Shown piece after piece: positions 29,368-60,504 of a stretch of DNA of 64,000 nucleotides. The position numbers were made by a program, and so were the translations under genes. Under the pieces are notes generated by a model, which saw only the letters and a list, made by a program, of their open reading frames with translations, was not told where the DNA came from and ran no database searches. This stretch comes from Trypanosoma brucei. Lineage: Eukaryota. Location: NCBI GenBank assembly GCA_000002445.1, contig CM000207.1, forward strand, positions 800,001 through 864,000, in the 5' to 3' direction. Each line of letters starts with the position of its first letter. The first letter of the stretch is position 1.

Positions 29368-32300
29368 TGCAGACTCCCTACCACTGATGTAGACAACTTT
29401 ACTAGAGATAACTACGGAACAGATACAAGTTACGAACCTTTGGTGCCTCCTCCTCCGCTGTCGCGGTGTCTACTGAAGCAACAAGCTTCCTCTAAGGGTG
29501 GTAACGACCTCCCCAATAAATTTGCGATTAATCAGAAGTAGTCTTCCAACGTGCGCAGGTGAAAATGCATAGATACATAAATAAATACCAGGATCATTAT
29601 TATTATTTTTTTAAATGAAAGAAGGTGGCAACCAAAAGGGAAAGCGCGCTTTTGAACTCATTCATCCGACGTGACGGAAAAAGTTTTCGCACCACGTGCA
29701 AGGTTTCAACAAACACCGGTATACACCAACGCTCTTCCGGAGAAAATGTTGCTGGAGGCTGACGAAAAAGGCCCCCAAATAATGAAGATCACGGTTCATA
29801 AGCCGCACAAACTAACTGACAGGACAATGAAAATGCTCCCAAAGTATTTGTGAAAGTAAGGCAATCCCCACGCGCTACAGCAACTGTCCTCCGCACATTT
29901 CACTCGGTGTTTCACCGAAACGAGGACGACACACACATACACACACACACACGTCTACCCAGCCACTAAAAGCACATCAATCCTCAAAGGAGGAAAAAAA
30001 AAAACGGACAGAAGCTTGGCTGTAGTGTTTCGTTTAGCCCCTCATGTCAAAACAAAAGCTCTTTAAATACTTTAGTTACCTTTCCACTGGAATAACAGAG
30101 TTCCTTCTTCCACACTCAAATACACCAACGAGCTCCTTCACGCACCCTCGGGGTTACCGCGGCTCACCTCTTCTGCATTATGTTCGGCTCATATTGATCA
30201 TTCATTTAACCGGTCATACAATTTAAAATTTTCCCACAACGTAAATTAATCGAAAAAAAAATGAATACACACGAAAATACCAAACGCTCAACCAATAAAA
30301 GCTTGGAACCACCTGTACCACCAAGTCATGGGATACACGTGTCAGGAAAAAAATAATTCGGTAGGTGCAGATTGTACGTATGGATGCAACCAACAAACCA
30401 ACACACTGCAACCGCAACTGCCCGTGGGCCAGTATGAAAGCAACGGTATTTTGAACAGCCCTGCTTTCGTATTAATCAAATCTAAGTGAAGAGAACAACA
30501 ACAAAATATAAACGTGAATATACATTTCCACGAAGGGGTGCGTGCCCTTCCTGGCAGCGCCTGGGGTAAACCAGATATAACGTACTGAGTCGTCGATCAA
30601 AAGATTCCCAGGCGGCTGAATGTAGGCGGTGACAATGCTACAGCATACGCTAACCAGACCCCAGCTTTCTGTAGTGCCAACTGCAGTGCGTTGGGACATC
30701 TTCAATCCTCCTGTTACATGAAAAATGAAGGCAAGCTCGTTAAAACGTTGTTAATTACAACGAAAGGTGATGCCATAAAATACACACGAAACAAAAATGC
30801 ATTGATTTCAATACAATCGGCGCTGATAAAATTAGAAAACCTTAAGCTGCAACCGCACTACACTTCTTCATGGAAGCATAACGACGCACGCAAACGCATC
30901 CGATGATGCCCATTGGCGGTTTTCTCGACTGGGTAAAATCAGATGTGAACAATCGTTGCTACAATACTAGTGCCTTTTTACTTTCCATCTTACTCGTGCG
31001 CCAAGTTCATCACCAGGGCGGCAACAACGCTTCAAAAACCCACACATAGCGACCATATCGCAGTGATATATACTAAATTAATGTGGATACTCAAGGCTCA
31101 ACAAAGCGCAGGAAAGATACTGTGCGTTAACATTATTTTTTCTCACACACAAACAGATTTAACACTCTACATGGATACCCGGTCACGGAATAGAAGCTCT
31201 GCTATGTAGAACGACCCTCTACCCCAAGAAGTCTGGTGGTCCTGTTGAGGCATCACCGTCAACGAGGACGTACCTGCTAGGGCTGGGTAAAACTTCCGTA
31301 AGGCTCCAAACATGGCATTTACATATGAATGCACAGCAATGCATGCACAATATGTATGAGCCAAGGAAAAAACAACACGAAATAAAAGCGCCTGCTCAAC
31401 CTCACAACTGCAAGGGCTTAAATCACTCTTCTGGGGCAACGAACTTAACTGAACAACCCAACAAGTTGGTATTCAATTACCCAAAACGGGGGTCCGCCAA
31501 TGACTCAGAAGGAAAGGGATACGATGGTACGGAGCTGCTGTACGTTACATGGTTTCATTCTGGCACAGACCATGCAGATACCCTTAAGCACTTAGGAAAA
31601 AAAGATGTTTTTCATGTATCGTATCGGTATAGCACTTTAAAACGACGCACAAGTAATACGCCTTCATCAAGTCGGTCCACGCAGCTTAAAAGCCCAAGGG
31701 CTGAGTAGACGTAGCGCGCGCTAACTTCAACTTTAGTCCTCGTATACGGACGTGGGCGTCACTAAACGCAAGCACCCCCAACTTTCCCCTTTACACAAGA
31801 GATGTGGCACGACCACAGCGACACCCCCCAGTTATCTCCCCCTTTTTTCTTTGAATGGAGGTCCAAAAAGGCAACCCCCCGACTTCCTGCCCCATTTTCC
31901 CGTTCTGCAGAAGGCAGCAAGGATGAAGTGAAACATCAGGGAAGAACGCTCAGCCCCAGACTCTATCAGAAAACGAAACGGAAAGCCGCCCAACGACGAC
32001 GGTTAACACTTTCGTGCATAACACCTCCGCGCGTTCTTAAACGTACAAGCCAGCAAGTTAACCCCCCCCCCCCTCACAAGTAAAATTTTCTACGGCGTCA
32101 CTGCAGAGGAGACTCGGGGCTGCGCACATACAGGAAGAGAAGGTCTAAAAGCGACCCGGGTCATTTTGCTGGGCTCGCACTCCGTGCGGCAGTGCCAAAA
32201 AAGAGTCCCATTTCACCCCTGCACTGCACTCCCCCCTGGTTATGTGTCTCAAGCTGCGGACCGACAGCACACAGGGAAAAAAATGGGTGCAGTAAGTTCC

Positions 32301-32855
32301 CGGTGGGTGGTATGCATCCCTCTCGCATCCGCCGTGTGTAATGAGAGCCGCCGCATGGCGGAGGAAAACCGGTGCCATGGAGTTCCGAGGGATTAGTCGT
32401 TCCCTCCATTCACACGAAAGGTGTGGCAAAACGGGGGAGGGGTGACTGGCCTCTCGCCACAGTCCATCTAAGCCTGCCTGTACGGCAGCTGCAGTACTTC
32501 CTTCCACGGTATTGGCGGAGGCTTCAGCGAATAATTTTTCCTCAAACCGTCTCTTACCCGCGGCGAAAGAGGGGCGAGTGAGTGGACTCTTATGCCCCTC
32601 TTGTCAGGCTTCGAACGGTCTTGTCCCGATTGCCGGGTAAGGCCTAGCAGGAGTGTGAGAGCGGCCCTTCAAGGTGGCTCTGCAGGTGAACAAAGCCACT
32701 GGACTTGGACAGGCAGTGGTTCTTTCATGATCCCGTCATCACAGCCGCGGTCCGGTACGCCGCGGAGTGGCGTTTGTGTTCCAAGGGAGACTTGCCGAGC
32801 CGTTCACCTTCTGTGCGGGATGAGGCCGAACCTATTTCGTTCGGGAGCTCACCTC

Positions 32856-33170
32856 GGTGGTGACTGTGGTTTTGGTGGGTGCCTTGCTCCGCTGTGTTGA
32901 AATTTGTCGAGGTGCGTGCTATTTTTTCCTTTTCTTTTTTTTTTTTGGTATCGAGTGTGACTTTCTGGGGGTAATGTGGTTGTTATTTCGCTGGAAGTGT
33001 GCGCTCCCTGAGGTGCACACATCTGGGCGGTGCGTGCCCCTCTGGGGTTCTGCGGCGTTGGGTAGCGTGCCCCTTGGTGTTATTGTTCTTTCTAGCGAGA
33101 CTGCCGGTCGAGAAGTGTGTGTGTGGAGACACGCTGCTACGTGGGGTCGTCCTCCTGGTGTGTGTGTGTT
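32856..33170 (+). promoter_or_regulatory. GT-rich element in divergent strand-switch region (candidate RNA pol II initiation/H2A.Z-deposition element for the downstream plus-strand polycistron)
   Basis: Over about 315 bp the plus strand is almost entirely G+T (ggtggtgactgtggttttggtgggt ... gggggtaatgtggttgttatttcgc ... gaagtgtgtgtgtggagac ... cctggtgtgtgtgtgttgc). It lies about 3.8 kb upstream of the first plus-strand gene (36962) and about 3.5 kb from the minus-strand LRR gene ATG. GT-rich elements are described at T. brucei pol II transcription start regions. Confidence 0.45.
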
Positions 33171-36100
33171 GCTCGCGCGCGCATGCCTGCCTGCGCGGGA
33201 TTCGCTGAGCAATGTGTCGCTGACTTCCCTTTATAAAAAAAAAAGAAAAATAGTTCGCGATATGTTCGTTTGCTTGACAGACGCCGAAGTACCGTGTTCA
33301 CGCAAAGGGTCGATGAAGATCTCGTCTCGCCTTTCGCGCTTTCGGGGTCCCGCAGTTATCGTATCTTTTCGAAGTGCACCGGGCTAAGATTCGCGTGGGG
33401 TGCCGTGCCGATTTCCCGACTGGTGATGCACTTCAGTTACTGCGGTGTTGTTTCCGTTCATTTTTTGATTTTGAATCACTTTTTTTTGTGTTTTTGACAA
33501 ATACAGGTTCTGGTGTACGCGAAGCGTATGCTTTTCTGGAGGTGGGCTTGCGCCCGGAATCTTCGTCAAACTCAGAAGATTTGTGACGTTTTTGGTCAAG
33601 TCACTACTACACATATATATGTGGTGAGGGTTGGTAACTTGCCCTGTGAACTAGCAACCACCTGCTGTTTGCTAAAGGACCAACTTTCGCTTTGTATTAT
33701 ATTTTATTTGATTCCCCCGGGAGGTGGAATGTGTTGTCATTTGTTCTAATCTGGGTGATAATCCTCGCCTGATTTAAAAAAAAGGAAAACGGCGACGGGT
33801 CAGTGTTATGTTATCTTTGCGACCAGAACTGTTTGTCAACAAATAAGTGGGTGTATTATTGTATAAGGGGGAGAGATTCTGTTTGGACCACAGCGGATAA
33901 ATAATAGGAGCAAATATAACTGTATGTACTCCTGAGCACAATAGAGTTTTGTTCGAAGAAAAGGATCACTTCATTGATCCTGCTTTTGCCAAATTTTTGC
34001 CTTTTGGTGACAAGAGCACTTGATAGCGGCGTGTCGCAATTCGGTTGTATGGTTTCTATAACTTAAATCCCGTGGATGGAAGCTGCGGATGAATATACAG
34101 TTAACTGTGTGCACGGCTGCCATTATGATTTCCCCCCTCTGCGTTCTAACCAACCCTAAGCTCGCTGGTAAGTTTGTACGAAGCTTTTCGGAGGAAAGTA
34201 AAATATTTTTCGGTTATTCGTTACGTACTGAAAACATCTTATGGTTTATTTATATTAGGGATTTGCGTTCTTGAGCTGAACAATTAGACGTGTCCGAAAT
34301 GTAAGTTTCGATTACTGCTTTCATTTTCCCGGTCTACATATATACATCCGCGCACACATATATGTATGCATATATTAAGTGCGTGGGCTTGAGTCTCCAT
34401 GTATATGTACATAGCTTCTATTTTCTGTAGTAATACGAAGGTCGTGTTGTGCGCAACCACTCGTGTACTGTGTGCGGTAATGTTTTCAAATGGTTAAAAT
34501 TTCCCCCCTTTTAATAGAGCGGCGTGCACACGCTAGCTTCGGTTTATATTATTTACTTCTATCAAACGCTCGTGATGTTTAAAGGTTTCCTCCCCTTTTT
34601 GGCGTGCATGGGTATGGGGACACAGGATGTCGCTTGTTTTTTTATTTTCTGCGCTCTTATCATAAGTTGCACGTGTGGAAAATGTTAATCTGAAATAAAG
34701 CGGGTGTAAATTGTATCGTTCAGTAAAGGAGGGATGCGTTCACAGTATCGAAAAAGTTTCAGATCACACTGAAGGCAATCGACCGTATTTAAATGTAAAG
34801 GTGCAGTGATATTCCGACGGCACTATTCCGTTAGTTGCTTACTGTAGGCGCCGTGATGTTTTGAAAATTTTCTTATTTACTCTGTGTTTACTCATTGGGC
34901 CTTCTGTTTTTGACTACACCAGTGGGAAAAAACGTTTTTTACACTTGAACCACTCATAAAATGCTTTTTGCAATGAAAAAAAAAGAGAGTAAATCCACTA
35001 ATATCCCAACGAGGTAGGGCATTTCTTTTACATCAACAATGCCGAAAGAATATGGATTGGGGAAGAAACCTTAATTCCGGTAGGCTGACGTGAACTTTTT
35101 TATTACTTTTCTAGTGGCCGAAGGGTTCTTCAAGGAAAAAAAAATAAGGATTGGGATCTTTTTTTTTTTTTGACGACAACATCTTTGTCACTGTTCAACT
35201 CTCTTGAAAAGAATGTGATAAAATTGTGAGGTTATCTTTTGATGACTTGGAAAATATTGAGTATTTCCCGAAGTGGCCTAATTACGTGTGAGGTAAGGTC
35301 GATCGACGGTCTGAGCCGGGCGGTGCCCATGTTTGTATCGTTTCCCCTTTGTTTCTCATCACGTTAGGTCTGCTAGCAAGGTGCCCTAAGGAGGACCTTT
35401 TATTTAGATTAATATTTCCCCGATCACGTGTAGTCTATGAAGCAGGTCTGTGCGCTTGCTCAAGAGAAAACTAAAGGAATGATGTTGTTTTATCCTCGTT
35501 GTTTCGTAGTGCGGCTCATAGTTTTACAATGCCCCACATATTGCCCGAAAGGTGGCCCGGGCACAATTTGTTCAATCTTCAGAGGATGAGTTGCCCCGTT
35601 TTGATTCATTCACAGCAATATATCCCCTCTCAGCCCCTTCCAACGAGTGTCGTGTTTAACCCTATGTGCGGGTTGGGGAAAAGAACGGTTGTTTTAATGT
35701 ACGGTGGCTTTATGACTTAGATTATGAACCACAAACTGTGTTTCATATTGGTTGCACCAACCAACGTAAGGAGACTTGTATTGGCCACTTTGGTCAAGAT
35801 AATTCGCGTACTCTTCCCCTTCCTGAGTGCAAGGGCTTTGTGAAGTTGACCGGGCTATTAATTAAAAAAAGGGTTATGCCTTACCGACTTGATTGCAGTT
35901 GGAGGATGTCTCCATTGTTTGTTATCGTTCTGTTACCAGCGCTTCTCCGATTTCGTTTATTAGGGCGTGTTCTTTACTAAATTGGCTTCCACACAGGGAA
36001 AAACAAAGATGAGAAAAGAGGCGGCGATGAAGTGCGCTTTGTTTGCTCAGATATTCTGGTTAGTGCTGTCAGGGGTTGATTGGAAACCAGATACCTCAAG

Positions 36101-36961
36101 ATTGTTCTGCCAAGTGTTGTTTTACAAAAATTCTACCTATTCTGCACCTCCTTTTGGTAGTGGTGTATAACTCAATTGGATAGCAAGACACATGACACTC
36201 TGCTTCCTTTTGTTTGTGATCGTCGTTGTGATTCGCTGTACTTGCCTATGTGGGGAAGAGAAATGTCATTCTACCTTTTTTCTTTTGAAATTTGTCTCTT
36301 TGCTAGAATTTGGATGGACTTGTTGTCACGTACGTATCAATGTGTAATTATTGATATTCGGAATAAGTGAAAAAAAAATGGACGGGTCTTCAGGGACATC
36401 CATCCCTTTTCTTGATGTGCTGGAAAGTGTTGCGGCAGGTACTGTTCTGTAGTTGGGTGAGCGCTTGCGTCAGGTTTCTGAGCTACTGATGTTTTCCTCA
36501 GGTACGGACGAAGTGGGGGATTATTGGAAAATGTTTTTATCTAGTTTCTAATGTTTATCATTTGTTTACGGTATGTTGCCGCTACAAAAATACTGGTAAT
36601 TATGACGTTTCTGCTGCCCTCGGTTATGACGTACTTGGAAGGATCGAACGTTACTTTTTTTTTTAAAAAAAATCAAAACTGTTTAAAAATTTTACGTTGC
36701 AGTCGCTTAAAAAAAATTTATGTGTGTATTTCCCCCTATGTGTTCCGTTCACTGTGCCTGTAGGTCAAAGGACGTTTATGATGCCTTAAAAAAAAAGAAA
36801 TTGGTCCCTTGAACCTCGTATTTTGTCTTCCTTTTCCTATTTTGCTTTATTTACACCATCATGTATTTAGGGACATCGAGCTTAGGACTCATAGGGAAAC
36901 GGGTTGCCAATAATTTATTACTTTAATAGTGGTTCGTCTCGGTAGGTATTTTGGGTGTGAG

Positions 36962-42430: not shown

Positions 42431-42668
42431 GCGGAAGCAGGAGGTCGCGTTTAACGTTTCGGAAGTTTCTTTATTAACTGTGTCGTTAGCAATAGTATTC
42501 ACGGAACGCAGCAAATAGGTGTTCACTCACTCACCCCTCTCCACTGACTCCCTCATTGGGTTATGTTATGCTTACACACGCATGCACATCTATAAAGTTG
42601 TGTAGATACATTCACGCATGCTCCGTGCACCTATATTTTTCTTGTTTGTAAACTGCAGAGCAGATACC

Positions 42669-43337
42669 ATGGCCGCGGATGATGAGTCTGCCGCACTGCT
42701 GCACCGCCTTGGGTGGTTAGTTGAGCGAAGCAAGGTCGGGTTCAAGGGGAACCCCCCTCCCTTTGAGTCAGCCAAAACTCAGAAAAGCGTGGAAATAATG
42801 AAAAGAAAAGAAAAGAGGAAACTTGCGGGGGGTACGAGCTTTAAGCCCTTTATCCACGGACCTCCGAGACTTGCCGAGGATTCACGGCCAACAAGACACT
42901 TGCGGGGCATAGACACCCAAAAATACGATGCTCAACTGAGCAAAACGGCCTTAAGCGGCCGTTGCCAGAAGTTAGATAGATCAACTGGATGCCCAGAGAT
43001 ACTGGCGGCTTTATGTTGGGATTTAGAAGCAAAGAAACCTGATGCCAATAAAGCTCAGAAGGATCCCGTTGGAACAGTTTGCCATCCTGATGATGGCCAT
43101 CGAGCGGCCACCGCTGGCAAAAATCAGTACCTTCTTACCCTGAGCAAGGAGGAAAGGGAAGCGTATTATAGATCTGAAGCGATAAATCACCCGAAGTTCA
43201 CCAGAAGGAGCCGCGAGTACCGGGAGGGCTTAGGATGGTACCACGGGTCTCAGCTTGTGGGGCCATTGCGTAAAGGCAGCTGTTCATCTGAACCTAAGAC
43301 TCGGAACTGCATTCGTCTGGTGAATAGAAATATTTAG
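42669..43337 (+). CDS. hypothetical protein (about 222 aa)
   Basis: The ORF lies between the kinase and the transporter. The ATG at 42669 (accATGg) sits immediately after a pyrimidine tract plus AG at 42620-42665. The upstream ATG at 42618 lies inside that tract. The protein is lysine-rich and hydrophilic with no recognised domain. Confidence 0.45.
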   Translation: MAADDESAALLHRLGWLVERSKVGFKGNPPPFESAKTQKSVEIMKRKEKRKLAGGTSFKPFIHGPPRLAEDSRPTRHLRGIDTQKYDAQLSKTALSGRCQKLDRSTGCPEILAALCWDLEAKKPDANKAQKDPVGTVCHPDDGHRAATAGKNQYLLTLSKEEREAYYRSEAINHPKFTRRSREYREGLGWYHGSQLVGPLRKGSCSSEPKTRNCIRLVNRNI

Positions 43338-43577: not shown

Positions 43578-44807
43578 ATGACTGTGTCTGAATTCGGCAG
43601 GTCTCGGGTGCTTTACAGACGTAATGGTGTCTCTGATGTCATCGAGGTGGGGAACACTACCGAACTGAATGATGTCATTGCATTACTTCGGTCCTTCTCT
43701 GGCGTTCCCAAGTCATATACAACTCTAGTTACCCCGTCTCTTGCCGAGCTGTGCGAGGATGCGGTTGGCGTGGAACGTTTGTGGACCAGCTCCGCCGAGC
43801 GCACTGAGCCGAAAGACTTTGCATGGCTTGAAGTTGAGACGGAGAGCGACGAAGTGATGAGACAGGTTCTCTCGGCGTTTCCCATCCATTCCAAAACGAG
43901 CGAGCTGGTACGGAGTAGTGAAAATAGAGTGGAGGTCGTGGAGATATTTCCGTCTTGCGGTTACGTATGGGTTAGCATCGCCGCCAAGGGGGCTGCATCA
44001 GAGTCTAGCGTTCCTGAGGATGATGAACCTGTTGTAGTCTCACTGATTGCGTATGAGCAGTTTCTTATCACGATGCATCGTAAACCTCTTTCGGGGTTTG
44101 AGGACATGAAGGCGCACATGGAAATGCTTGTTAAGTCCCCAGCTTCGTATGGGGCACCAGTTCCCACGGCCGTATGCTCTCTAATAAGTGGTTTTGTCAA
44201 GGAGTATCAAAAGGAGCTACTATCGTTACTTGTTGATGTTGATAACGTCAACGAATTAGTTCTCGAAATCCAACCCTCGGAGTGTGATCAGCTGGATTTG
44301 CTGCGACGTATCGATGATCTTCGGCACAGTCTCTCGCGGGTGCAGGCATCTTATTTCGCCAAGGAGCGCGTGCTGCAGAGACTTCTTCTTCCTGTTGTGA
44401 AGCGTACTTTCATATCCTCTGCCGTAGGTGTTGCCGCTCGGTACCAAAGGATGCTTTCCGGTTTAATTCTTTCTATTGAAAGGCTGCGGAAGGGTCGTGA
44501 TGTTCTCAATATGTCGAGCATGGGCCTTGTAAGTGGTGTTTCAATGCGGTTACTGCAGCGCTGTTATTGGATGGACTACTTGAATAATGTTATGACGATG
44601 ATGACGCTTGTTAGCATGCCTATATCTATTATCCCGGGCCTTTTCACCATGAACGTTCGTGTTCCCTTTGAGGACAGTGAGAGCTTCGTGCCCTTCTATG
44701 TTATTGTGGCAGTCACCGCTGGAATTTTTTTCCTAGGGATGTCGTACCCGGTGTATTTGTACCTCACCTTTAAGTCTCCGGGCGCGCTGGTGCCCACTTC
44801 GCACTAG
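43578..44807 (+). CDS. CorA/MRS2-like divalent cation transporter with variant TMN signature
   Basis: The C-terminal two-TM module MTLVSMPISIIPGLFTMNVRVPFED...FYVIVAVTAGIFFLGMSYPVYLYL aligns to the CorA TM1-GMN-loop-TM2 architecture (LTxxxxIFxPLTxIAGxYGMNF). The N-terminal part is a soluble alpha/beta domain. The track start 43569 is GTG and the ATG is at 43578. Confidence 0.68.
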   Translation: MTVSEFGRSRVLYRRNGVSDVIEVGNTTELNDVIALLRSFSGVPKSYTTLVTPSLAELCEDAVGVERLWTSSAERTEPKDFAWLEVETESDEVMRQVLSAFPIHSKTSELVRSSENRVEVVEIFPSCGYVWVSIAAKGAASESSVPEDDEPVVVSLIAYEQFLITMHRKPLSGFEDMKAHMEMLVKSPASYGAPVPTAVCSLISGFVKEYQKELLSLLVDVDNVNELVLEIQPSECDQLDLLRRIDDLRHSLSRVQASYFAKERVLQRLLLPVVKRTFISSAVGVAARYQRMLSGLILSIERLRKGRDVLNMSSMGLVSGVSMRLLQRCYWMDYLNNVMTMMTLVSMPISIIPGLFTMNVRVPFEDSESFVPFYVIVAVTAGIFFLGMSYPVYLYLTFKSPGALVPTSH

Positions 44808-52017: not shown

Positions 52018-52555
52018 AGTAACGATTATAGATACATAAACCATTTCCTCTCATTTTTTCCCTCTCTCATGATTACTTTTTATGTTTTCCTCCTTTTCTT
52101 GTTGCATTATGTTACTTGGGGGCATGCGCGTACGGGTGAGTGCTGGTGTTCGGGCTGTTAGGGAAGATGACAATTAATACATGTTCACGTGTGAAGGTCC
52201 CGACATATGGCATTTGTACTTTTTTTTTTTGCGAACTGACGGAAGTTGGTTCTCCTTGCCGGTCGTGCATTCCGCCCTTCTCTCTCCCTTCCAATTCGCT
52301 ACCATTTTTTTTTTGAAATTTCCTTTCCCACTGCTCTGCTTTATGAGGTGTAGAAGCAGATTGTGACGGTGCGACATTTCAATGTATTCTATGACAGTAT
52401 AGCCTTTTCACTTGTTTGTAACTGCTGAATTCTTTAAACTCTCGGCATTTGTTACCTTTTCTCCCCGAGCATCGGCAGCATAACCTTTTGTTTTGCCTAG
52501 AGGACATCTCACTCTCTTAGCATAGTACTCATTGTGCACAGTTGGACACTACGTC

Positions 52556-55348
52556 ATGTTCATGAACAAGCCCTTTGGCAGCAAGCGCTGCGAACCCTTC
52601 CACGAGTCGGAGCACCTTTGTGAGGCGTTTGCCATCACTGAAGCAATCCTCGCTCGCTATCAGCGTGGGAAACGCAGCTTTACGTCCTCCGAAAAAAGTG
52701 GACTGGCAGCCCTTATCAAACGTATTCCTTATGATATCCTTGTTGAGGTTCTCGATCAAAGCGGATTTACTCCAACAAGCAATGCAACACCCCCCGTTGA
52801 TTATTTAGCTATGATGGAGCACACAATGACGCACGGTGCGTCTATTACACACGCCCTGCAGTACCTTAACGATTTGATGACTAAGTGTACCGGGTGCCCG
52901 GGGATTCGTACATATTACCATAACCCCAATGATGACGTTCTGGCCGACCCCGTTCACGACACGGCAGCATTGATTGATGAAACAACAGCCGTGGGAAAGT
53001 CGGTTGTAACTAAACAGTACCTTAATATAGCTGGGGCTCACTACATACCCTTGATCCACGGAGATATTGTGGTTGGTTGTGTTGAGGTACCCCGCTTTTC
53101 GGGAAATCTTGAGGAGTTGCCATCATTCCCATCTCTCATAAGAGCTGTGACATGCACCGCACACAAATTCATTGAGGAAGCGAGAATCAACTGGAACAGG
53201 GAGAAGGCGGAAGCTATGTTGCAAATGGCGACCAGGTTGGCCCGTGACAATCTTGATGAAACAGTACTTGCATCTTCTATCATGAACACTGTCAAGAGTC
53301 TCACGGAAAGTGCACGTTGCAGTCTCTTCCTTGTGAAAGACGACAAGCTTGAAGCGCATTTTGAGGATGGTAACGTCGTTTCCATACCCAAGGGAACAGG
53401 CATTGTAGGGTATGTGGCGCAAACTGGTGAGACTGTTAATATTGTTGATGCCTACGCCGATGACCGCTTTAACCGTGAGGTTGACAAGGCTACTGGGTAC
53501 CGTACAAAGACGATACTCTGCATGCCTGTGATGTACGAAGGAACGATTGTGGCTGTAACCCAGCTGATTAATAAATTGGATCTGACAACTGAGAGTGGAT
53601 TGCGCCTACCTCGTGTGTTCGGAAAACGTGACGAGGAGCTGTTCCAAACCTTCTCTATGTTTGCTGGCGCCTCACTACGTAACTGTCGTATCAATGACCG
53701 ACTCTTAAAGGAGAAGAAAAAGAGTGACGTGATTCTCGATGTTGTTACTGTTCTCTCGAACACGGATATCCGCGATGTGGATGGTATTGTTCGCCACGCA
53801 CTGCACGGAGCAAAGAAACTACTGAACGCGGATCGCTCTACTTTGTTTTTGGTGGACAAGGAACGGAACGAACTTTGCAGTCGTATGGCAGATAGCGTTG
53901 CTGGTAAGGAGATTCGTTTTCCGTGTGGCCAAGGTATTGCGGGCACTGTGGCGGCATCTGGAGTTGGTGAGAATATTCAGGACGCGTACCAGGATCCGCG
54001 TTTCAACCGTGAGGTTGACAAACAACTTGGATACCGCACGCAGACCATATTGTGCGAGCCCATCATACTAAATGGTGAGATCCTTGCTGTCGTGCAGCTC
54101 GTGAACAAGCTTGATACGTCTGGAGAAGTGACTGTGTTTACCGAGGATGATCGTGAGACCTTCCGTGTGTTTTCCTTATTTGCAGGTATATCCATCAACA
54201 ACTCTCACCTGCTTGAGTTCGCTGTGAAAGCGGGTCGTGAGGTGATGGAATTAAATGAACACCGAGCAACATTGTTTAATAAGAACGTTCCCTCACGTGC
54301 GGTTAAACGAGTCACTGCCATTACGAAGGTTGAAAGGGAAGCGGTCTTGGTCTGTGAACTTCCATCGTTTGACGTTACGGATGTTGAGTTCGACTTGTTC
54401 CGAGCGCGTGATACTACGGATAAACCGTTGGATGTTGCTGCTGCTATTGCATACAGACTACTGCTTGGAAGCGGCCTTCCACAAAAGTTTGGTTGCTCTG
54501 ACGAGGTGCTTCTTAACTTCATTCTGCAATGCCGTAAGAAATACCGTAATGTCCCTTATCACAACTTTTACCATGTTGTGGATGTATGCCAAACCATTCA
54601 CACATTCTTGTACAGGGGAAATGTGTATGAGAAGTTAACCGAGCTTGAGTGCTTTGTGCTGCTTATCACCGCACTGGTGCATGATCTTGATCATATGGGG
54701 CTGAACAACAGTTTCTACCTGAAAACAGAATCTCCACTTGGTATTCTTTCCAGCGCAAGTGGTAACACCTCTGTTCTTGAGGTGCATCACTGCAACCTTG
54801 CTGTTGAGATCCTCTCTGATCCGGAATCTGATGTGTTTGGTGGTCTGGAGGGTGCAGAGCGTACTCTTGCGTTCCGATCGATGATTGATTGTGTACTTGC
54901 GACAGATATGGCGAAGCATGGAAGTGCATTAGAGGCGTTTCTTGCATCTGCGGCGGACCAGTCGTCAGACGAGGCGGCGTTTCACCGCATGACGATGGAG
55001 ATACTCTTGAAAGCTGGAGATATCTCTAACGTAACGAAACCGTTCGACATTTCCCGTCAGTGGGCAATGGCTGTGACGGAGGAGTTCTACCGTCAAGGAG
55101 ACATGGAGAAGGAGAGGGGTGTGGAAGTATTGCCCATGTTTGACCGATCTAAGAATATGGAGCTTGCAAAAGGTCAAATTGGATTCATTGACTTTGTCGC
55201 AGCCCCATTTTTCCAGAAGATAGTTGATGCCTGCCTGCAAGGGATGCAATGGACAGTCGACCGTATCAAATCGAACCGCGCACAGTGGGAGCGAGTTCTG
55301 GAAACAAGACTATCAACGAGTTCTGGCAACAACAGCAGTACTCGTTGA
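52556..55348 (+). CDS. PDEB1: cAMP-specific phosphodiesterase PDEB1 (tandem GAF-A/GAF-B plus class I PDE catalytic domain), 930 aa
   Basis: Two GAF domains (NIVDAYADDRFNREVD, NIQDAYQDPRFNREVD) are followed by the HD-type catalytic domain YHNFYHVVDV...HDLDHMGLNNSF. The track start 52532 is TTG and the first ATG is at 52556 (MFMNKPFGSKR), giving exactly 930 aa as for T. brucei PDEB1. It is the upstream copy of the tandem pair. Confidence 0.9.
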   Translation: MFMNKPFGSKRCEPFHESEHLCEAFAITEAILARYQRGKRSFTSSEKSGLAALIKRIPYDILVEVLDQSGFTPTSNATPPVDYLAMMEHTMTHGASITHALQYLNDLMTKCTGCPGIRTYYHNPNDDVLADPVHDTAALIDETTAVGKSVVTKQYLNIAGAHYIPLIHGDIVVGCVEVPRFSGNLEELPSFPSLIRAVTCTAHKFIEEARINWNREKAEAMLQMATRLARDNLDETVLASSIMNTVKSLTESARCSLFLVKDDKLEAHFEDGNVVSIPKGTGIVGYVAQTGETVNIVDAYADDRFNREVDKATGYRTKTILCMPVMYEGTIVAVTQLINKLDLTTESGLRLPRVFGKRDEELFQTFSMFAGASLRNCRINDRLLKEKKKSDVILDVVTVLSNTDIRDVDGIVRHALHGAKKLLNADRSTLFLVDKERNELCSRMADSVAGKEIRFPCGQGIAGTVAASGVGENIQDAYQDPRFNREVDKQLGYRTQTILCEPIILNGEILAVVQLVNKLDTSGEVTVFTEDDRETFRVFSLFAGISINNSHLLEFAVKAGREVMELNEHRATLFNKNVPSRAVKRVTAITKVEREAVLVCELPSFDVTDVEFDLFRARDTTDKPLDVAAAIAYRLLLGSGLPQKFGCSDEVLLNFILQCRKKYRNVPYHNFYHVVDVCQTIHTFLYRGNVYEKLTELECFVLLITALVHDLDHMGLNNSFYLKTESPLGILSSASGNTSVLEVHHCNLAVEILSDPESDVFGGLEGAERTLAFRSMIDCVLATDMAKHGSALEAFLASAADQSSDEAAFHRMTMEILLKAGDISNVTKPFDISRQWAMAVTEEFYRQGDMEKERGVEVLPMFDRSKNMELAKGQIGFIDFVAAPFFQKIVDACLQGMQWTVDRIKSNRAQWERVLETRLSTSSGNNSSTR
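53190..55300 (+). repeat. segmental duplication copy A (PDEB1 3' 2.1 kb)
   Basis: It is near-identical to 58361-60471 with a constant offset of 5171 bp and no indels. Spurious antisense ORFs 53452..53946, 53819..54025, 54205..54522 and 54635..54919 reappear at exactly +5171. Confidence 0.9.
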
Positions 55349-57726: not shown

Positions 57727-60504
57727 ATGACACACAACGGTGGTCGTCATCTGCTTGAGGCGGTTACGCTATGCGGGTCCATTCTTACCCGCTATAAGCG
57801 GAGCAACATGAAGCTCGACGAAGCTGAGGTAAGGGCATTAAAGGAGTTATTCGAGAAGTATCAAGATATCCTCGTGGATGGATCCCCTGGTTTGCCCACC
57901 CACGCTAGCGGGCCCATGATCCAGCCTCCCGTTACAAACATGGTCGCCCCTTATGATTCCCCCACGGATACTATAGTGAAGTTCGTTGAAGGAACGATAA
58001 ACCTGCAGAGACCAATTGTTGAGGTCCTTCACGTTATGAACGAGCATTTGTCCCTTGTCCTTCGCGCAAAGAACACTCATGTCTTTTATGTCGACCCCGT
58101 TAATAACCTGTTATACGACCCTATTCACGGGGTGGCCGCTGCACTCGATGAATCGTCACCAATAGGAAAGGCCATAGTTTCGGGTGAGCGGCTTAACGTA
58201 GCGGGGACACTATATATACCCATCATCTCCGAGGGGATGCCGTTGGGTTGCGTACTGAGTCCTTGTGGAAGGGCAGATTACCACGCCTCTACGATGCTTG
58301 AGTCATCACTCCGTGTTATTTCCACATCCCTCAAAAACATCATTCAGGCAGAGAAACTAAACTGGAACAAAGAAAAGGCGGAGGCTATGCTCCGGATGGC
58401 AACGCAGCTGGCCCGTGACAATCTTGAAGAAACAGTACTCGCATCTTCTATCATGAACACTGTCAAGAGTCTCACGGAAAGTGCGCGTTGCAGTCTCTTC
58501 CTTGTCAGGGGTGACGTTCTTGAAGCGCATTTTGAGGATGGTAACGTTGTTACAATCCCTAGGGGTGCAGGTATTGCCGGATATGTGGCGCAAACTGGTG
58601 AGACTGTTAATATTGTTGATGCCTACGCCGATGACCGCTTTAACCGTGAGGTTGACAAGGCTACTGGGTACCGTACAAAGACGATACTCTGCATGCCTGT
58701 GATGTACGAAGGAACGATTGTGGCTGTTGCCCAACTGATTAATAAATTGGATCTGACAACTGAGAGTGGATTGCGCCTACCTCGTGTGTTCGGAAGGCGT
58801 GATGAGGAGCTGTTCCAAACCTTCTCTATGTTTGCTGGCGCCTCACTACGTAACTGTCGTATCAACGACCGACTCTTAAAGGAGAAGAAAAAGAGTGACG
58901 TGATTCTCGATGTTGTTACTGTTCTCTCGAACACGGATATCCGCGATGTGGATGGTATTGTTCGCCACGCACTGCACGGAGCAAAGAAACTACTGAACGC
59001 GGATCGCTCTACTTTGTTTTTGGTGGACAAGGAACGGAACGAACTTTGCAGTCGTATGGCAGATAGCGTTGCTGGTAAGGAGATTCGTTTTCCGTGTGGC
59101 CAAGGTATTGCGGGCACTGTGGCGGCATCTGGAGTTGGTGAGAATATTCAGGACGCGTACCAGGATCCGCGTTTCAACCGTGAGGTTGACAAACAACTTG
59201 GATACCGCACGCAGGCCATATTGTGCGAGCCCATCATACTAAATGGTGAGATCCTTGCTGTCGTGCAGCTCGTGAACAAGCTTGATTCATCTGGAGAAGT
59301 GACTGTGTTTACCGAGGATGATCGTGACACCTTCCGTGTGTTTTCCTTATTTGCAGGTATATCCATCAACAACTCTCACCTGCTTGAGTTCGCTGTGAAG
59401 GCGGGTCGTGAGGTGATGGAATTAAATGAACACCGAGCAACATTGTTTAATAAGAACGTTCCCTCACGTGGAGTTAAACGAGTCACTGCCATCACAAATA
59501 GAGAAAGGGAGGCTGTGCTACGTATTGAGTTCCCCAACGTGGACGTTACGGATATTGACTTCGACTTGTTCCAGGCACGTGAAAGTACAGATAAACCGTT
59601 GGATGTTGCTGCTGCTATTGCATACAGACTACTGCTTGGAAGCGGCCTTCCACAAAAGTTTGGTTGCTCTGACGAGGTGCTTCTTAACTTCATTCTGCAA
59701 TGCCGTAAGAAATACCGTAATGTCCCTTATCACAACTTTTACCATGTTGTGGATGTATGCCAAACCATTTACACATTCTTGTACAGGGGAAATGTGTATG
59801 AGAAGTTAACCGAGCTTGAGTGCTTTGTGCTGCTTATCACCGCACTGGTGCATGATCTTGATCATATGGGGCTGAACAACAGTTTCTACCTGAAAACAGA
59901 ATCTCCACTTGGTATTCTTTCCAGCGCAAGTGGTAACAAGTCTGTTCTTGAGGTGCATCACTGCAACCTTGCTGTTGAGATCCTCTCTGATCCGGAATCT
60001 GATGTGTTTGGTGGTCTGGAGGGTGCAGAGCGTACTCTTGCGTTCCGATCGATGATTGATTGTGTACTTGCGACAGATATGGCGAGACATAGTGAATTTC
60101 TTGAGAAGTACCTAGAGCTTATGAAAACATCTTACAACGTTGATGATTCCGATCATCGGCAAATGACAATGGATGTGCTTATGAAAGCTGGAGATATCTC
60201 TAACGTAACGAAACCGTTCGACATTTCCCGTCAGTGGGCAATGGCTGTGACGGAGGAGTTCTACCGTCAAGGAGACATGGAAAAGGAGAGGGGTGTGGAA
60301 GTATTGCCCATGTTTGACCGATCTAAGAATATGGAGCTTGCAAAAGGTCAAATTGGATTCATTGACTTTGTCGCAGCCCCATTTTTCCAGAAGATAGTTG
60401 ATGCCTGCCTGCAAGGGATGCAATGGACAGTCGACCGTACAAAGTCGAACCGCGCACAGTGGGAGCGAGTTCTGGAAGCAAGGAGTACAGGGGCTTCGTC
60501 TTAG
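57727..60504 (+). CDS. PDEB2: cAMP-specific phosphodiesterase PDEB2 (GAF-A/GAF-B plus PDE catalytic domain), 925 aa
   Basis: It has the same architecture as PDEB1. The ATG at 57727 is genuine and gives 925 aa as for T. brucei PDEB2. It is collinear with PDEB1 at a constant +5171 bp offset. It has its own N-terminal 200 aa and a C-terminal tail ...EARSTGASS. Confidence 0.9.
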   Translation: MTHNGGRHLLEAVTLCGSILTRYKRSNMKLDEAEVRALKELFEKYQDILVDGSPGLPTHASGPMIQPPVTNMVAPYDSPTDTIVKFVEGTINLQRPIVEVLHVMNEHLSLVLRAKNTHVFYVDPVNNLLYDPIHGVAAALDESSPIGKAIVSGERLNVAGTLYIPIISEGMPLGCVLSPCGRADYHASTMLESSLRVISTSLKNIIQAEKLNWNKEKAEAMLRMATQLARDNLEETVLASSIMNTVKSLTESARCSLFLVRGDVLEAHFEDGNVVTIPRGAGIAGYVAQTGETVNIVDAYADDRFNREVDKATGYRTKTILCMPVMYEGTIVAVAQLINKLDLTTESGLRLPRVFGRRDEELFQTFSMFAGASLRNCRINDRLLKEKKKSDVILDVVTVLSNTDIRDVDGIVRHALHGAKKLLNADRSTLFLVDKERNELCSRMADSVAGKEIRFPCGQGIAGTVAASGVGENIQDAYQDPRFNREVDKQLGYRTQAILCEPIILNGEILAVVQLVNKLDSSGEVTVFTEDDRDTFRVFSLFAGISINNSHLLEFAVKAGREVMELNEHRATLFNKNVPSRGVKRVTAITNREREAVLRIEFPNVDVTDIDFDLFQARESTDKPLDVAAAIAYRLLLGSGLPQKFGCSDEVLLNFILQCRKKYRNVPYHNFYHVVDVCQTIYTFLYRGNVYEKLTELECFVLLITALVHDLDHMGLNNSFYLKTESPLGILSSASGNKSVLEVHHCNLAVEILSDPESDVFGGLEGAERTLAFRSMIDCVLATDMARHSEFLEKYLELMKTSYNVDDSDHRQMTMDVLMKAGDISNVTKPFDISRQWAMAVTEEFYRQGDMEKERGVEVLPMFDRSKNMELAKGQIGFIDFVAAPFFQKIVDACLQGMQWTVDRTKSNRAQWERVLEARSTGASS
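58361..60471 (+). repeat. segmental duplication copy B (PDEB2 3' 2.1 kb)
   Basis: It is the partner of copy A. The UTRs and intergenic flanks on either side of the two genes are unrelated. Confidence 0.9.

What the first reader, a model, noticed from the sequence alone, without database searches (positions are those of the whole stretch)
43578..44807. CorA/MRS2-family transporter in which the universally conserved GMN pore motif is TMN
The TM1-loop sequence reads GLFTMNVRVPFED where canonical CorA/Mrs2/Alr1 proteins have (Y/F)GMN. The Gly of GMN forms the narrowest part of the periplasmic/intermembrane selectivity ring, and substitutions usually abolish Mg2+ transport. A natural G-to-T variant therefore suggests either altered ion selectivity or a regulatory, non-transporting paralog.
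Basis: partly seen in the sequence, partly recalled or inferred. Interest (0 to 1): 0.5.

Follow-up and report, generated by a model that had tools for sequence, protein, structure and literature searches.

The report
Trypanosome CorA channel lacking filter glycine
A trypanosome member of the CorA magnesium-channel family carries threonine instead of the normally invariant pore glycine; this change is old, conserved and under selection across trypanosomatid parasites, so it is a natural test of why that glycine is otherwise conserved.

Summary
Window 43578..44807 (+) is an intact 409-aa CorA-family gene. It is 100% identical to a T. equiperdum protein and is inferred to be Tb927.9.4930. T357-M358-N359 aligns without gaps to G312-M313-N314 of Thermotoga CorA, at the end of the pore helix.

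This is neither a sequencing error nor a pseudogene. All nine Trypanosoma orthologs have TMN, and dN/dS is 0.12-0.21. A clade of 27 sequences, including Leishmania, Leptomonas, Angomonas and Phytomonas, has only T, A or S at this position, while Asn is invariant.

The glycine loss comes with other clade-specific changes:
- Pro353 is present in 27/27 clade members but 2/125 relatives.
- A polar residue (N336) sits where CorA has its hydrophobic gate Met.
- Four of the five acidic positions that include CorA's cytoplasmic Mg2+-sensor aspartates are lost.

The inferred Leishmania ortholog LmxM.28.1940 resisted deletion twice. The partial mutant is lost from culture within 144 h.

The most likely reading is a working cation channel with altered selectivity and gating. 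A regulatory subunit, or a compensated ordinary Mg2+ channel, cannot be excluded. No transport data exist. I rate it a new variant of a known kind, of moderate interest.

The parts
43578..44807 (+). Complete coding sequence, 409 aa plus TAG, of the CorA-family protein. It is inferred to be Tb927.9.4930, 'divalent cation transporter, putative'.
   Evidence: ORF and translation. Pfam CorA at 64.1 bits. 100% identity over the full length to the T. equiperdum protein P0001. The next gene is presenilin, which is Tb927.9.4940 (PMC6027440). Tb927.9.4930 carries the same product name (PMC7568655).
43578..44423 (+). N-terminal cytoplasmic alpha/beta domain, residues 1-282. It contains the positions equivalent to the TmCorA Mg2+-sensor residues: E109, L110 (=D89), S204 (=D175) and K208 (=D179).
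   Evidence: AlphaFold secondary structure. Foldseek match to TmCorA over about 400 columns. Residue mapping.
44424..44648 (+). Long stalk plus TM1 pore helix, residues 283-357. It includes R291 (=TmCorA D253), S294 (=D256), N336 (=gate M291), M339 (=L294), M347 (=M302), P348, S350 (=T305), P353, G354 (=G309) and T357 (=G312).
   Evidence: One continuous helix 283-357 in the model. Gapless mapping of 336-359 to TmCorA 291-314. Composition of the clade against other relatives.
44634..44636 (+). Pro353, a clade-specific proline four residues before T357.
   Evidence: Pro in 27/27 clade members and 2/125 other relatives. Cross-tabulation of P353 against G357: 28 P/non-G, 117 non-P/G, 2 P/G, 5 non-P/non-G.
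44646..44654 (+). The TMN triplet (T357 M358 N359; ACC ATG AAC), in place of the GMN selectivity-filter motif.
   Evidence: TMN is present in all nine Trypanosoma orthologs. The Thr codon is ACC or ACG in six species, with synonymous changes around it.
44649..44687 (+). TM1-TM2 loop, residues 358-370 (MNVRVPFEDSESF). It contains invariant P363 and the acidic residues E365 (=TmCorA E320, CtMrs2 E449), D366 and E368.
   Evidence: Coil in the model. N359 and P363 are invariant in the clade and in the other relatives. N+6 Glu equivalence.
44688..44765 (+). TM2, residues 371-396.
   Evidence: Hydropathy. Helix 371-396 in the model.
44766..44804 (+). Clade-specific C-terminal tail (TFKSPGALVPTSH; clade consensus R-Y-K-P-P-G-A-L-V/A-P). 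It replaces the basic KKKKWL end of TmCorA.
   Evidence: P401 is present in 27/27 clade members. Most other relatives end before this point.

Best explanation
This is a real, selected gene for a divergent CorA-fold channel subunit. It belongs to an old clade found throughout the trypanosomatids and is inferred to be Tb927.9.4930.

Shown here:
- The filter glycine is replaced by a small residue: Thr in all Trypanosoma, Ala or Ser elsewhere. The filter Asn, the loop Pro and the acidic loop are kept.
- The replacement travels with a clade-specific Pro four residues upstream.
- A polar Asn sits where CorA has its hydrophobic gate Met.
- Four of five acidic positions aligned to TmCorA D89, D175, D179, D253 and D256, which include its cytoplasmic Mg2+-sensor aspartates, are lost. 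Two of them are replaced by Arg or Lys.

Inferred:
- The protein still assembles into a pentamer and conducts cations across an internal, reticulate (ER-like) membrane.
- Its filter geometry differs from classical CorA: the Thr backbone carbonyl is kept, a side chain is added, and the mouth is reshaped by Pro353.
- Its gating is not driven by cytosolic Mg2+ binding. An Arg291-Glu109 contact may replace the Mg2+ bridge.
- Its ion selectivity and regulation therefore differ from classical Mg2+-feedback-controlled CorA, Mrs2 or Alr1 channels.
- It performs a function that the GMN paralogs (MGT-type) cannot replace.
For: - **Family and fold.** Pfam CorA. AlphaFold model with pLDDT 83 and pTM 0.73. 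Foldseek best hits are all TmCorA, E 2e-14, TM 0.55-0.73.
- **Position of TMN.**
- **Conservation.** TMN in 9/9 Trypanosoma orthologs. The order kinase-FYVE / small ORF / CorA / presenilin / Tyw1 is kept in five further species. dN/dS is 0.117 (theileri/melophagium) and 0.211 (rangeli/conorhini), at dS of about 0.45-0.5.
- **Clade.** 27 representatives with [T/A/S]-x-N form one group in an NJ tree built without the motif columns, bootstrap 150/200. Named members are L. major, Leptomonas, Angomonas and Phytomonas.
- **Pore kept.** N359, P348, P363 and F373 are invariant and the pore-lining positions are polar. E365 is at the N+6 position.
- **Correlated changes.** P353 27/27 against 2/125. Position 336 is Asn in 22/27, against Met/Leu/Val outside. 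Position 204 is Ser against Asp in 71. Position 208 is Lys against Asp/Glu in 81. Position 291 is Arg/His against Asp in 41. Position 294 is Ser/Thr against Asp in 52.
- **Importance.** The inferred Leishmania ortholog LmxM.28.1940 was an 'incomplete' knockout, then 'refractory to gene deletion' twice on a diploid chromosome. Its barcode fell 445/343/376 -> 35/33/81 -> 6/3/9 -> 0/0/0 over 144 h in vitro (PMC11696137; PMC13004518).
- **T. brucei data.** TrypTag localisation is 'cytoplasm (reticulated)', and overexpression was 9-fold enriched among melarsoprol survivors (PMC7568655).
Against: - No transport, electrophysiology or complementation data exist for any member of the clade.
- In the model systems tested, substitutions in GMN abolish Mg2+ transport, including G->A in Mrs2 (PMC4613352). 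A non-conducting protein is therefore a fair default.
- Conservation of pore residues would also be expected for a subunit that joins a heteromeric pore.
- The model is a monomer, so pore radius and the direction of the Thr side chain are unknown. pLDDT is only 69-74 around the motif.
- N-terminal domain residue equivalences rest on alignments at about 16% identity, although two methods agree.
- The links window = Tb927.9.4930 and P0022 = LmjF.28.1940 are inferred from neighbours and product names, not from direct sequence comparison.
- An incomplete knockout is suggestive of essentiality, not proof.
Confidence: 0.5

Rival explanations
1. It is a non-conducting or modulatory subunit. The G-less protein has lost ion conduction of its own. 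It acts either by joining heteropentamers with the GMN paralogs (MGT1/MGT2-type) in the same membrane system or as a sensor or scaffold.
For: Single substitutions in GMN, including G->A, abolish Mg2+ transport in tested CorA and Mrs2 proteins (PMC4613352; triple mutant in PMC11919701). The reticulated localisation is compatible with the ER location reported for Leishmania MGT1/MGT2 (PMC12998195). GMN paralogs exist in Trypanosoma (T. grayi MGT2, P0029).
Against: N359, P363, the acidic loop and a polar pore lining are under strict conservation across the whole clade. The clade is only about 20-25% identical to the GMN paralogs and has a heptad insertion in the stalk, which makes mixed pentamers less likely. 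The partial loss of the Leishmania ortholog has a much stronger in vitro phenotype than the MGT1 null.
Confidence: 0.2
2. It is an ordinary Mg2+ channel with a compensated filter. In this structural background, with Pro353 and the other changes, a small Thr/Ala/Ser is functionally equivalent to Gly because only the backbone carbonyl matters. On this view the protein is simply a third Mg2+ uptake channel.
For: The Gly contributes its main-chain oxygen, not a side chain (PMC11919701). Only small residues (T, A, S) are accepted at this position, and Asn is invariant. The strict coupling with Pro353 looks compensatory. Natural AMN variants occur in rice MRS2 proteins (PMC4613352).
Against: The clade has also changed the hydrophobic gate position and lost four of the five acidic positions that include TmCorA's Mg2+-sensor aspartates. 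That is not expected if function were unchanged.
Confidence: 0.2
3. It is the kinetoplastid inner-mitochondrial-membrane Mg2+ channel, a functional replacement for Mrs2.
For: L. mexicana has only three MIT-family genes, and two of them (MGT1, MGT2) are reported in the ER. 'Reticulated' patterns in procyclic cells are sometimes mitochondrial: a mitochondrial ribosomal protein carries the same label in the same table.
Against: Tb927.9.4930 was not found in the held supplements of the importome or of the mitoproteome compilation (some files may be truncated). The N-terminus is part of the folded domain from residue 8 and is not conserved as a presequence among orthologs. The best structural matches are to bacterial CorA, not Mrs2.
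Confidence: 0.07
4. It is a sequencing error, an assembly artefact or a decaying pseudogene.
For: None beyond the unusual motif.
Against: There are intact full-length ORFs with TMN in nine species from independent assemblies. Two base changes separate ACC from any Gly codon. dN/dS is 0.12-0.21. The TM1-loop-TM2 segment is the most conserved part of the protein.
Confidence: 0.01

Closest known systems
Thermotoga maritima CorA (PDB 2BBJ, 2IUB, 4I0U, 3JCF)
   Same: Same overall fold: an N-terminal alpha/beta domain, a long stalk helix running into TM1, a short acidic loop and TM2 (Foldseek E 2e-14, TM 0.55-0.73). Shared residues are W61/W83, H83/H104, P303/P348, G309/G354, M313/M358, N314/N359 and E320/E365.
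   Different: G312 -> T357. A308 -> P353. Gate M291 -> N336. Sensor D89 -> L110, D175 -> S204, D179 -> K208, D253 -> R291 and D256 -> S294. There is a 7-residue insertion in the stalk. The KKKKWL end is replaced by a K-S-P-G-A-L-V-P tail. The protein scores 31 bits against the 200.75-bit cut-off of the bacterial CorA equivalog model.
Leishmania MGT1 (LmjF/LmxM.15.1310) and MGT2 (25.1090), the characterised trypanosomatid CorA-like Mg2+ transporters
   Same: Same superfamily (TC 1.A.35) and same organism group, with internal-membrane (ER) localisation reported. MGT2 is also refractory to deletion.
   Different: This is a different paralog. A Trypanosoma protein named MGT2 (T. grayi P0029) has GMN and falls outside the G-less clade. 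The Leishmania member of the clade is a third gene, LmxM.28.1940. The 2026 sand-fly paper does not count it among the 'two predicted magnesium transporters'. I could not obtain the MGT1 and MGT2 sequences themselves.
Rice OsMRS2-4 and OsMRS2-5 (AMN) and OsMRS2-8 (GIN)
   Same: These are natural CorA/MRS2 family members in which the filter Gly is Ala, or in which the Met varies. They are conserved in a lineage (monocots), and their function is unresolved (PMC4613352).
   Different: They are an unrelated branch (plant MRS2), and Thr has not been reported there. The trypanosomatid clade couples the change with Pro353, a polar gate and loss of sensor acids, and has genetic evidence of importance.
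Eukaryotic Alr1/Mnr2-like plasma-membrane and vacuolar Mg2+ transporters
   Same: The nearest GMN relatives in the deep search carry the G-M-N-V-x-V-P-(G/F)-Q motif. LmxM.25.1090 is classed as Alr1-like by InterPro. The G-less clade shares the N-V-x-V-P-F core of that motif.
   Different: The Gly is lost, the Pro353-Gly354 pair is gained, and the tail and sensor positions are clade-specific. That Alr1 itself carries this motif is from my own knowledge; it was not tested here.

Membership tests
CorA / MIT superfamily (Pfam PF01544; TC 1.A.35) | Significant match to the family profile | tested here: met
   PF01544 at 64.1 bits against a cut-off of 27, covering residues 79-385.
CorA / MIT superfamily (Pfam PF01544; TC 1.A.35) | Two C-terminal transmembrane helices joined by a short loop, preceded by a long stalk helix and an alpha/beta domain | tested here: met
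   Hydropathy. AlphaFold model helices 283-357 and 371-396. Foldseek match to TmCorA with TM 0.55-0.73.
CorA / MIT superfamily (2-TM-GxN definition) | G-x-N signature at the end of TM1: the Gly | tested here: not met
   The residue is T357, and it is T/A/S in all 27 clade members.
CorA / MIT superfamily (2-TM-GxN definition) | G-x-N signature at the end of TM1: the Asn | tested here: met
   N359 is invariant in the clade (27/27) and in the relatives (125/125).
CorA / MIT superfamily | Homopentameric assembly forming a central pore | not testable with these tools
   Only a monomer could be modelled.
CorA / MIT superfamily | Transport of Mg2+ (Co2+, Ni2+) | not testable with these tools
   No experimental data were found for this gene or its orthologs.
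Classical Mg2+-gated CorA (TmCorA type) | Cytoplasmic acidic divalent-cation sensor (D89, D175, D179, D253, D256 in TmCorA) | tested here: not met
   The equivalents are L110, S204, K208, R291 and S294. The GMN relatives mostly keep Asp or Glu at these columns.
Classical Mg2+-gated CorA (TmCorA type) | Hydrophobic gate (M291, L294 in TmCorA) | tested here: inconclusive
   M291 -> N336 (clade Asn 22/27). L294 -> M339 in T. brucei, with the clade showing Gln 17 and Met 6. Pore geometry was not modelled.
Bacterial CorA equivalog (NCBIfam TIGR00383) | Score above the curated cut-off | tested here: not met
   31.2 bits against a cut-off of 200.75.
ZntB-type zinc transporter (the name given to several orthologs) | Specific similarity to ZntB models or structures | tested here: not met
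   No ZntB model matched in NCBIfam at E<=1. The PDB sequence and fold hits are TmCorA. The 'putative zinc transporter' names appear to be automatic.
Trypanosomatid MGT1/MGT2 group | Groups with proteins named MGT and carries GMN | tested here: not met
   T. grayi MGT2 (P0029, GMN) lies outside the clade. The clade is separated with bootstrap 150/200.
Mitochondrial Mrs2 | Mitochondrial localisation, presequence and Mrs2-type motifs | tested here: inconclusive
   The gene was not found in the held mitochondrial proteome supplements. There is no conserved presequence. TrypTag reports 'cytoplasm (reticulated)'.

The most novel reading that the evidence does not exclude
The whole trypanosomatid [T/A/S]-x-N clade is a CorA-fold channel that has changed what it conducts or how it is gated. 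For example, it may be a constitutively regulated channel for a cation other than Mg2+, or a poorly selective one, in the ER. It would be essential in these parasites and absent from their hosts. That would make it both a natural answer to why GMN is conserved and a parasite-specific channel target.
Probability: 0.3. Interest if true: 0.7.

Novelty: new variant of a known kind. Interest (0 to 1): 0.5.

Why it matters
GMN is treated as the hallmark and selectivity filter of the CorA/Mrs2/Alr1 superfamily, and laboratory substitutions of the Gly destroy Mg2+ transport. Here the Gly has been absent for the whole history of the trypanosomatids, under purifying selection. It is accompanied by a matched Pro, a polar gate and loss of sensor acids.

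This provides ready-made compensating mutations to test in TmCorA or Mrs2, namely G312T with or without A308P. It also shows that the family can evolve away from Mg2+-feedback gating.

For parasitology, it flags a third CorA-like gene, Tb927.9.4930 / LmxM.28.1940, that papers on Mg2+ transport in these parasites have not discussed. In Leishmania it appears to be needed for growth.

Tried and rejected
- **Word-indexed homolog searches.** Two searches with alignments returned nothing beyond the first search. As a result I could not retrieve the T. brucei paralogs or the Leishmania MGT1 and MGT2 sequences.
- **First NJ tree.** The run was invalid because saturated distances gave NaN values. I repeated it with capped distances.
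- **Zhu et al. 2009.** This paper on Leishmania MGT1/MGT2 is not held.
- **Last literature search.** One search was too loose and gave nothing useful. Searches for papers linking GMN with trypanosomatids, or naming the gene ids, found none.
- **T. brucei supplements.** Tb927.9.4930 was absent from the held supplements of the importome, mitoproteome and TrypTag papers. This is weak negative evidence because stored files may be cut.
- **AlphaFold-database fold library.** It was unavailable.
- **Window protein against PDB.** A plain phmmer search found nothing. The profile search was needed.
- **Sequencing error or pseudogene.** Considered and rejected.
- **G354 as a shifted filter glycine.** Considered and rejected, because it corresponds to the separately conserved G309 of TmCorA.
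- **ZntB identity.** Considered and rejected.
Full report
**What is there.** The window carries an intact ORF at 43578..44807 on the + strand. An in-frame TAG lies 12 nt upstream of the ATG, and a polypyrimidine tract followed by AG lies about 90 nt upstream, as expected for a trans-spliced trypanosome gene. The 409-aa product matches Pfam CorA (PF01544) at 64.1 bits against a cut-off of 27. It is 100% identical over its full length to a protein named 'divalent cation transporter, putative' in T. equiperdum, so the window comes from the T. brucei group.

The neighbouring genes, in order, are a condensin Cnd1 subunit, a kinase with a FYVE finger, a 239-aa ORF, the CorA gene, presenilin, a Tyw1-like radical-SAM enzyme, Sld5, an HMG-box protein, and two tandem GAF-GAF phosphodiesterases. 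Presenilin of T. brucei is Tb927.9.4940 (PMC6027440), and Tb927.9.4930 is listed as 'divalent cation transporter' (PMC7568655). I therefore take the gene to be Tb927.9.4930. This rests on position and product name, not on a direct sequence comparison.

**The observation.** GLFTMNVRVPFED is residues 354-366, and T357-M358-N359 are ACC ATG AAC at 44646..44654. A profile of the Trypanosoma orthologs searched against PDB aligns '...MPiaiiPGlfTMNv' with T. maritima CorA '...MPLTFIAGIYGMNF' without gaps. A MAFFT alignment of 72 relatives plus TmCorA gives the same mapping: window residue = TmCorA residue + 45 over 336-359, so G312 corresponds to T357 and N314 to N359. I checked that my TmCorA sequence is identical to PDB 3JCF chain A.

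An AlphaFold model built with 24 aligned sequences (pLDDT 83, pTM 0.73) has one continuous helix from 283 to 357, a loop at 358-370 and TM2 at 371-396. Its best Foldseek matches in PDB are all TmCorA chains, at E about 2e-14 and TM 0.55-0.73. TMN therefore sits exactly where GMN sits.

**Not an error, and not unique to this copy.** All nine Trypanosoma orthologs have TMN: brucei/equiperdum, congolense, vivax, grayi, theileri, melophagium, cruzi, rangeli and conorhini. The gene order kinase-FYVE / small ORF / CorA / presenilin / Tyw1 is the same in theileri, melophagium, rangeli, conorhini and cruzi. The Thr codon is ACC or ACG, with synonymous differences in the flanking codons. Nei-Gojobori dN/dS is 0.117 for theileri/melophagium and 0.211 for rangeli/conorhini, at dS of about 0.45-0.5. 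The gene is under purifying selection.

**A clade without the glycine.** A profile search of 1.84 billion representative proteins found 790 hits at E<=0.001. I extracted the motif column from the best 150.
- The top 27 have T, A or S in place of Gly: TMN, AMN, SCN, AAN, ATN, ASN, TCN, SGN and AVN.
- From the next hit onward the motif is GMN, in 119 of 125 sequences.
- Named members of the G-less set are L. major Q4Q872 (677 aa, AMN), Leptomonas pyrrhocoris (730 aa, ASN), Angomonas deanei (408 aa, AMN) and Phytomonas EM1 (410 aa, TCN). The rest come from unnamed sequencing-run assemblies.
- In a neighbour-joining tree of the C-terminal 181 columns, with the three motif columns left out, the 27 form one group (bootstrap 150/200) and the nine Trypanosoma proteins form a subgroup (197/200).
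- A T. grayi protein named MGT2 has GMN and lies outside the group.

In Leishmaniinae and Angomonas the gene sits at a different locus, between EF-G / HPF1 and ZIP / PDCD5 / BCCIP genes. The tree nonetheless gives one gene per lineage, which fits orthology with relocation.

**What else changed with the glycine.** I compared the 27 clade members with the other relatives, using an hmmalign alignment (111-125 sequences, depending on the columns) and a smaller MAFFT alignment of 15 clade members and 57 relatives.

Kept in both groups:
- N359, P348, P363 and F373.
- G354, which corresponds to G309 of TmCorA.
- An acidic loop. In T. brucei E365 occupies the N+6 position, the Glu reported as conserved across the CorA/Mrs2 family.

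Specific to the clade:
- Pro353 is present in 27/27 clade members against 2/125 others.
- Position 336 (TmCorA gate M291) is Asn in 22/27, against mostly Met, Leu or Val outside.
- Position 339 (L294) is Gln in 17 and Met in 6, against Leu, Met, Phe or Ile outside.
- There is a C-terminal tail with the consensus R-Y-K-P-P-G-A-L-V-P, in which P401 is present in 27/27.
- The stalk carries a seven-residue insertion relative to TmCorA.

Five acidic residues of TmCorA (D89, D175, D179, D253, D256), which include its cytoplasmic Mg2+-sensor aspartates, map to window positions 110, 204, 208, 291 and 294. The GMN relatives mostly keep Asp or Glu at these columns (60, 71, 81, 41 and 52 sequences respectively). 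In this protein they are L110, S204, K208, R291 and S294. The clade majorities at 204, 208, 291 and 294 are Ser, Lys, Arg/His and Ser/Thr, and only position 110 is still often Asp. Two independent alignments agree on these equivalences. They rest on about 16% identity to TmCorA, however, and should be checked on a structure.

**Function: what is known.**
- TrypTag places Tb927.9.4930 in 'cytoplasm (reticulated)'.
- Its overexpression was 9-fold enriched among melarsoprol survivors in an ORFeome screen. It was not among the hits I saw validated individually (PMC7568655).
- I did not find it in the held supplements of a mitochondrial importome or a mitoproteome compilation.
[quoted passage not shown] - LmxM.28.1940 gave an 'incomplete' knockout in the first screen. 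In the second it was 'refractory to gene deletion' in both attempts, on a diploid chromosome.
- The barcode of that line fell from 445/343/376 reads to 35/33/81, 6/3/9 and 0/0/0 at 24, 48 and 144 h in promastigote culture (PMC13004518 supplements).
- The text of that paper speaks only of 'the two predicted magnesium transporters', so the third gene has not been discussed.

[quoted passage not shown] Single substitutions in the motif abolish Mg2+ transport (PMC4613352). In this clade the Asn ring, the loop Pro, the acidic loop and a polar lining are all strictly kept. Only small residues are tolerated at position 357, and a Pro always sits one helical turn before it.

I read this as a pore that is still used, with a mouth reshaped so that a small side chain fits. 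Loss of the sensor acids, with Arg/Lys in two places, and a polar residue at the gate position suggest that closure is not driven by cytosolic Mg2+ binding. R291 could pair with E109 of the neighbouring subunit in place of the Mg2+ bridge.

The steps shown are the family, the fold, the position of the motif, its conservation, the co-variation and the genetic importance of the inferred Leishmania ortholog. The steps inferred are pentamer formation, conduction, altered selectivity and gating, and ER location. I put this reading at 0.5.

**Rivals.**
- A non-conducting or modulatory subunit that joins GMN paralogs (0.2). This fits the mutagenesis literature and a shared ER location. It fits less well with the strict conservation of the filter Asn and loop, the low similarity to the paralogs, and the strong phenotype in Leishmania.
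- An ordinary Mg2+ channel in which Thr is neutral because only the backbone matters (0.2). This fits the small-residue rule and the Pro coupling, but not the changes at gate and sensor positions.
- A mitochondrial Mrs2 substitute (0.07). This has little support.
- Error or pseudogene (0.01). This is excluded.

**Comparison with what is known, and novelty.** The protein is a member of the CorA/MIT superfamily by profile and by fold. It fails the 'G' of the 2-TM-GxN signature and lacks the TmCorA-type sensor. It is not a bacterial CorA equivalog (31 bits against 200.75), not ZntB, and not in the MGT group.

Natural loss of the Gly is not unprecedented. Rice OsMRS2-4 and -5 have AMN, and their function is unknown. 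I also found a second trypanosome lineage with AMN (T. theileri P0089).

The gene itself is annotated and appears in screens. I found no paper that notes its motif, the clade-wide [T/A/S]-x-N pattern, or the coupled changes. I rate it a new variant of a known kind, with moderate interest (0.5). It would surprise a CorA specialist somewhat, and it makes the question 'why is GMN conserved?' directly testable with specified compensating mutations. No function has yet been measured.

Noticed in passing
P0089 (T. theileri, 520 aa), P0114, P0120; not in the window: There is a second, separate CorA-like lineage with a non-Gly filter. T. theileri 'MGT2' has AMN (YPVITIQTVYAMNVPVPFDS), and two unnamed relatives have SIN and AMN. 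This lineage lacks Pro353. In the NJ tree it groups, together with a GMN protein (P0045), next to the G-less clade. Trypanosomatids may therefore have lost the filter Gly twice.
   Followed up: partly
window 52532..55348 and 57727..60504 (+): Two tandem GAF-GAF cyclic-nucleotide phosphodiesterase genes, presumably PDEB1 and PDEB2, are 77% identical overall. Long central and catalytic stretches are almost identical while the N-termini diverge, which suggests gene conversion.
   Followed up: partly
window 42618..43337 (+): A 239-aa ORF lies just upstream of the CorA gene. It has no Pfam match but has a positional ortholog in T. theileri (46% identity, E 4e-68), and genes of 228-232 aa are called at the same place in four other Trypanosoma species. 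It is a conserved protein of unknown function.
   Followed up: partly
window 44766..44804 (+); clade alignment positions 393-401: A clade-specific C-terminal tail follows TM2, with consensus Y-x-Y-F-R-Y-K-P-P-G-A-L-V/A-P and an invariant Pro401. It replaces the basic KKKKWL end of TmCorA. It could be a sorting or interaction motif.
   Followed up: no
L001 (L. major), L003 (Leptomonas), L002 (Angomonas): Leishmaniinae members of the clade are much longer (677-730 aa) because of low-complexity insertions in the N-terminal domain. They sit at a different locus from the Trypanosoma gene, directly upstream of one to three ZIP metal-transporter genes. In Angomonas two TPMT genes occupy that position instead.
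   Followed up: partly
P0011, P0017, P0021, P0023-P0025 (SCN), P0018 (TCN): Several non-Trypanosoma members of the clade have Cys instead of Met in the middle of the motif (S-C-N, T-C-N). That would put a ring of thiols at the pore mouth and hints at a soft-metal preference. Apart from Phytomonas EM1 (P0018), the source organisms are unnamed.
   Followed up: no
window 44499..44562 (+), residues about 308-329: Relative to TmCorA the stalk helix carries a seven-residue insertion, one heptad, between the positions equivalent to L280 and S284. The GMN relatives sampled share this insertion, so it seems to be a feature of this eukaryotic branch rather than of the G-less clade.
   Followed up: no
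window 27895..29367 (-) and 29400..36900: The only sizeable minus-strand ORF is a 490-aa leucine-rich-repeat protein. It is followed by about 7 kb that is poor in ORFs, has lower G+C (0.41-0.45) and shows a reversal of GC skew. This looks like a strand-switch region between polycistronic units. No tandem repeats or tRNA genes were found there.
   Followed up: partly
window 22419..25055 (+): An 878-aa protein with ion-channel, Slo-like RCK and BK-channel domains, that is, a calcium-activated-type potassium channel homolog.
   Followed up: no
window 43905..43907 (L110): The position equivalent to TmCorA D89 is Asp in most Trypanosoma orthologs (consensus T-K-E-D-V) but Leu in T. brucei and T. 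congolense (S-E-L, V-E-L). This is a further, lineage-specific loss at the former Mg2+-sensor site.
   Followed up: no
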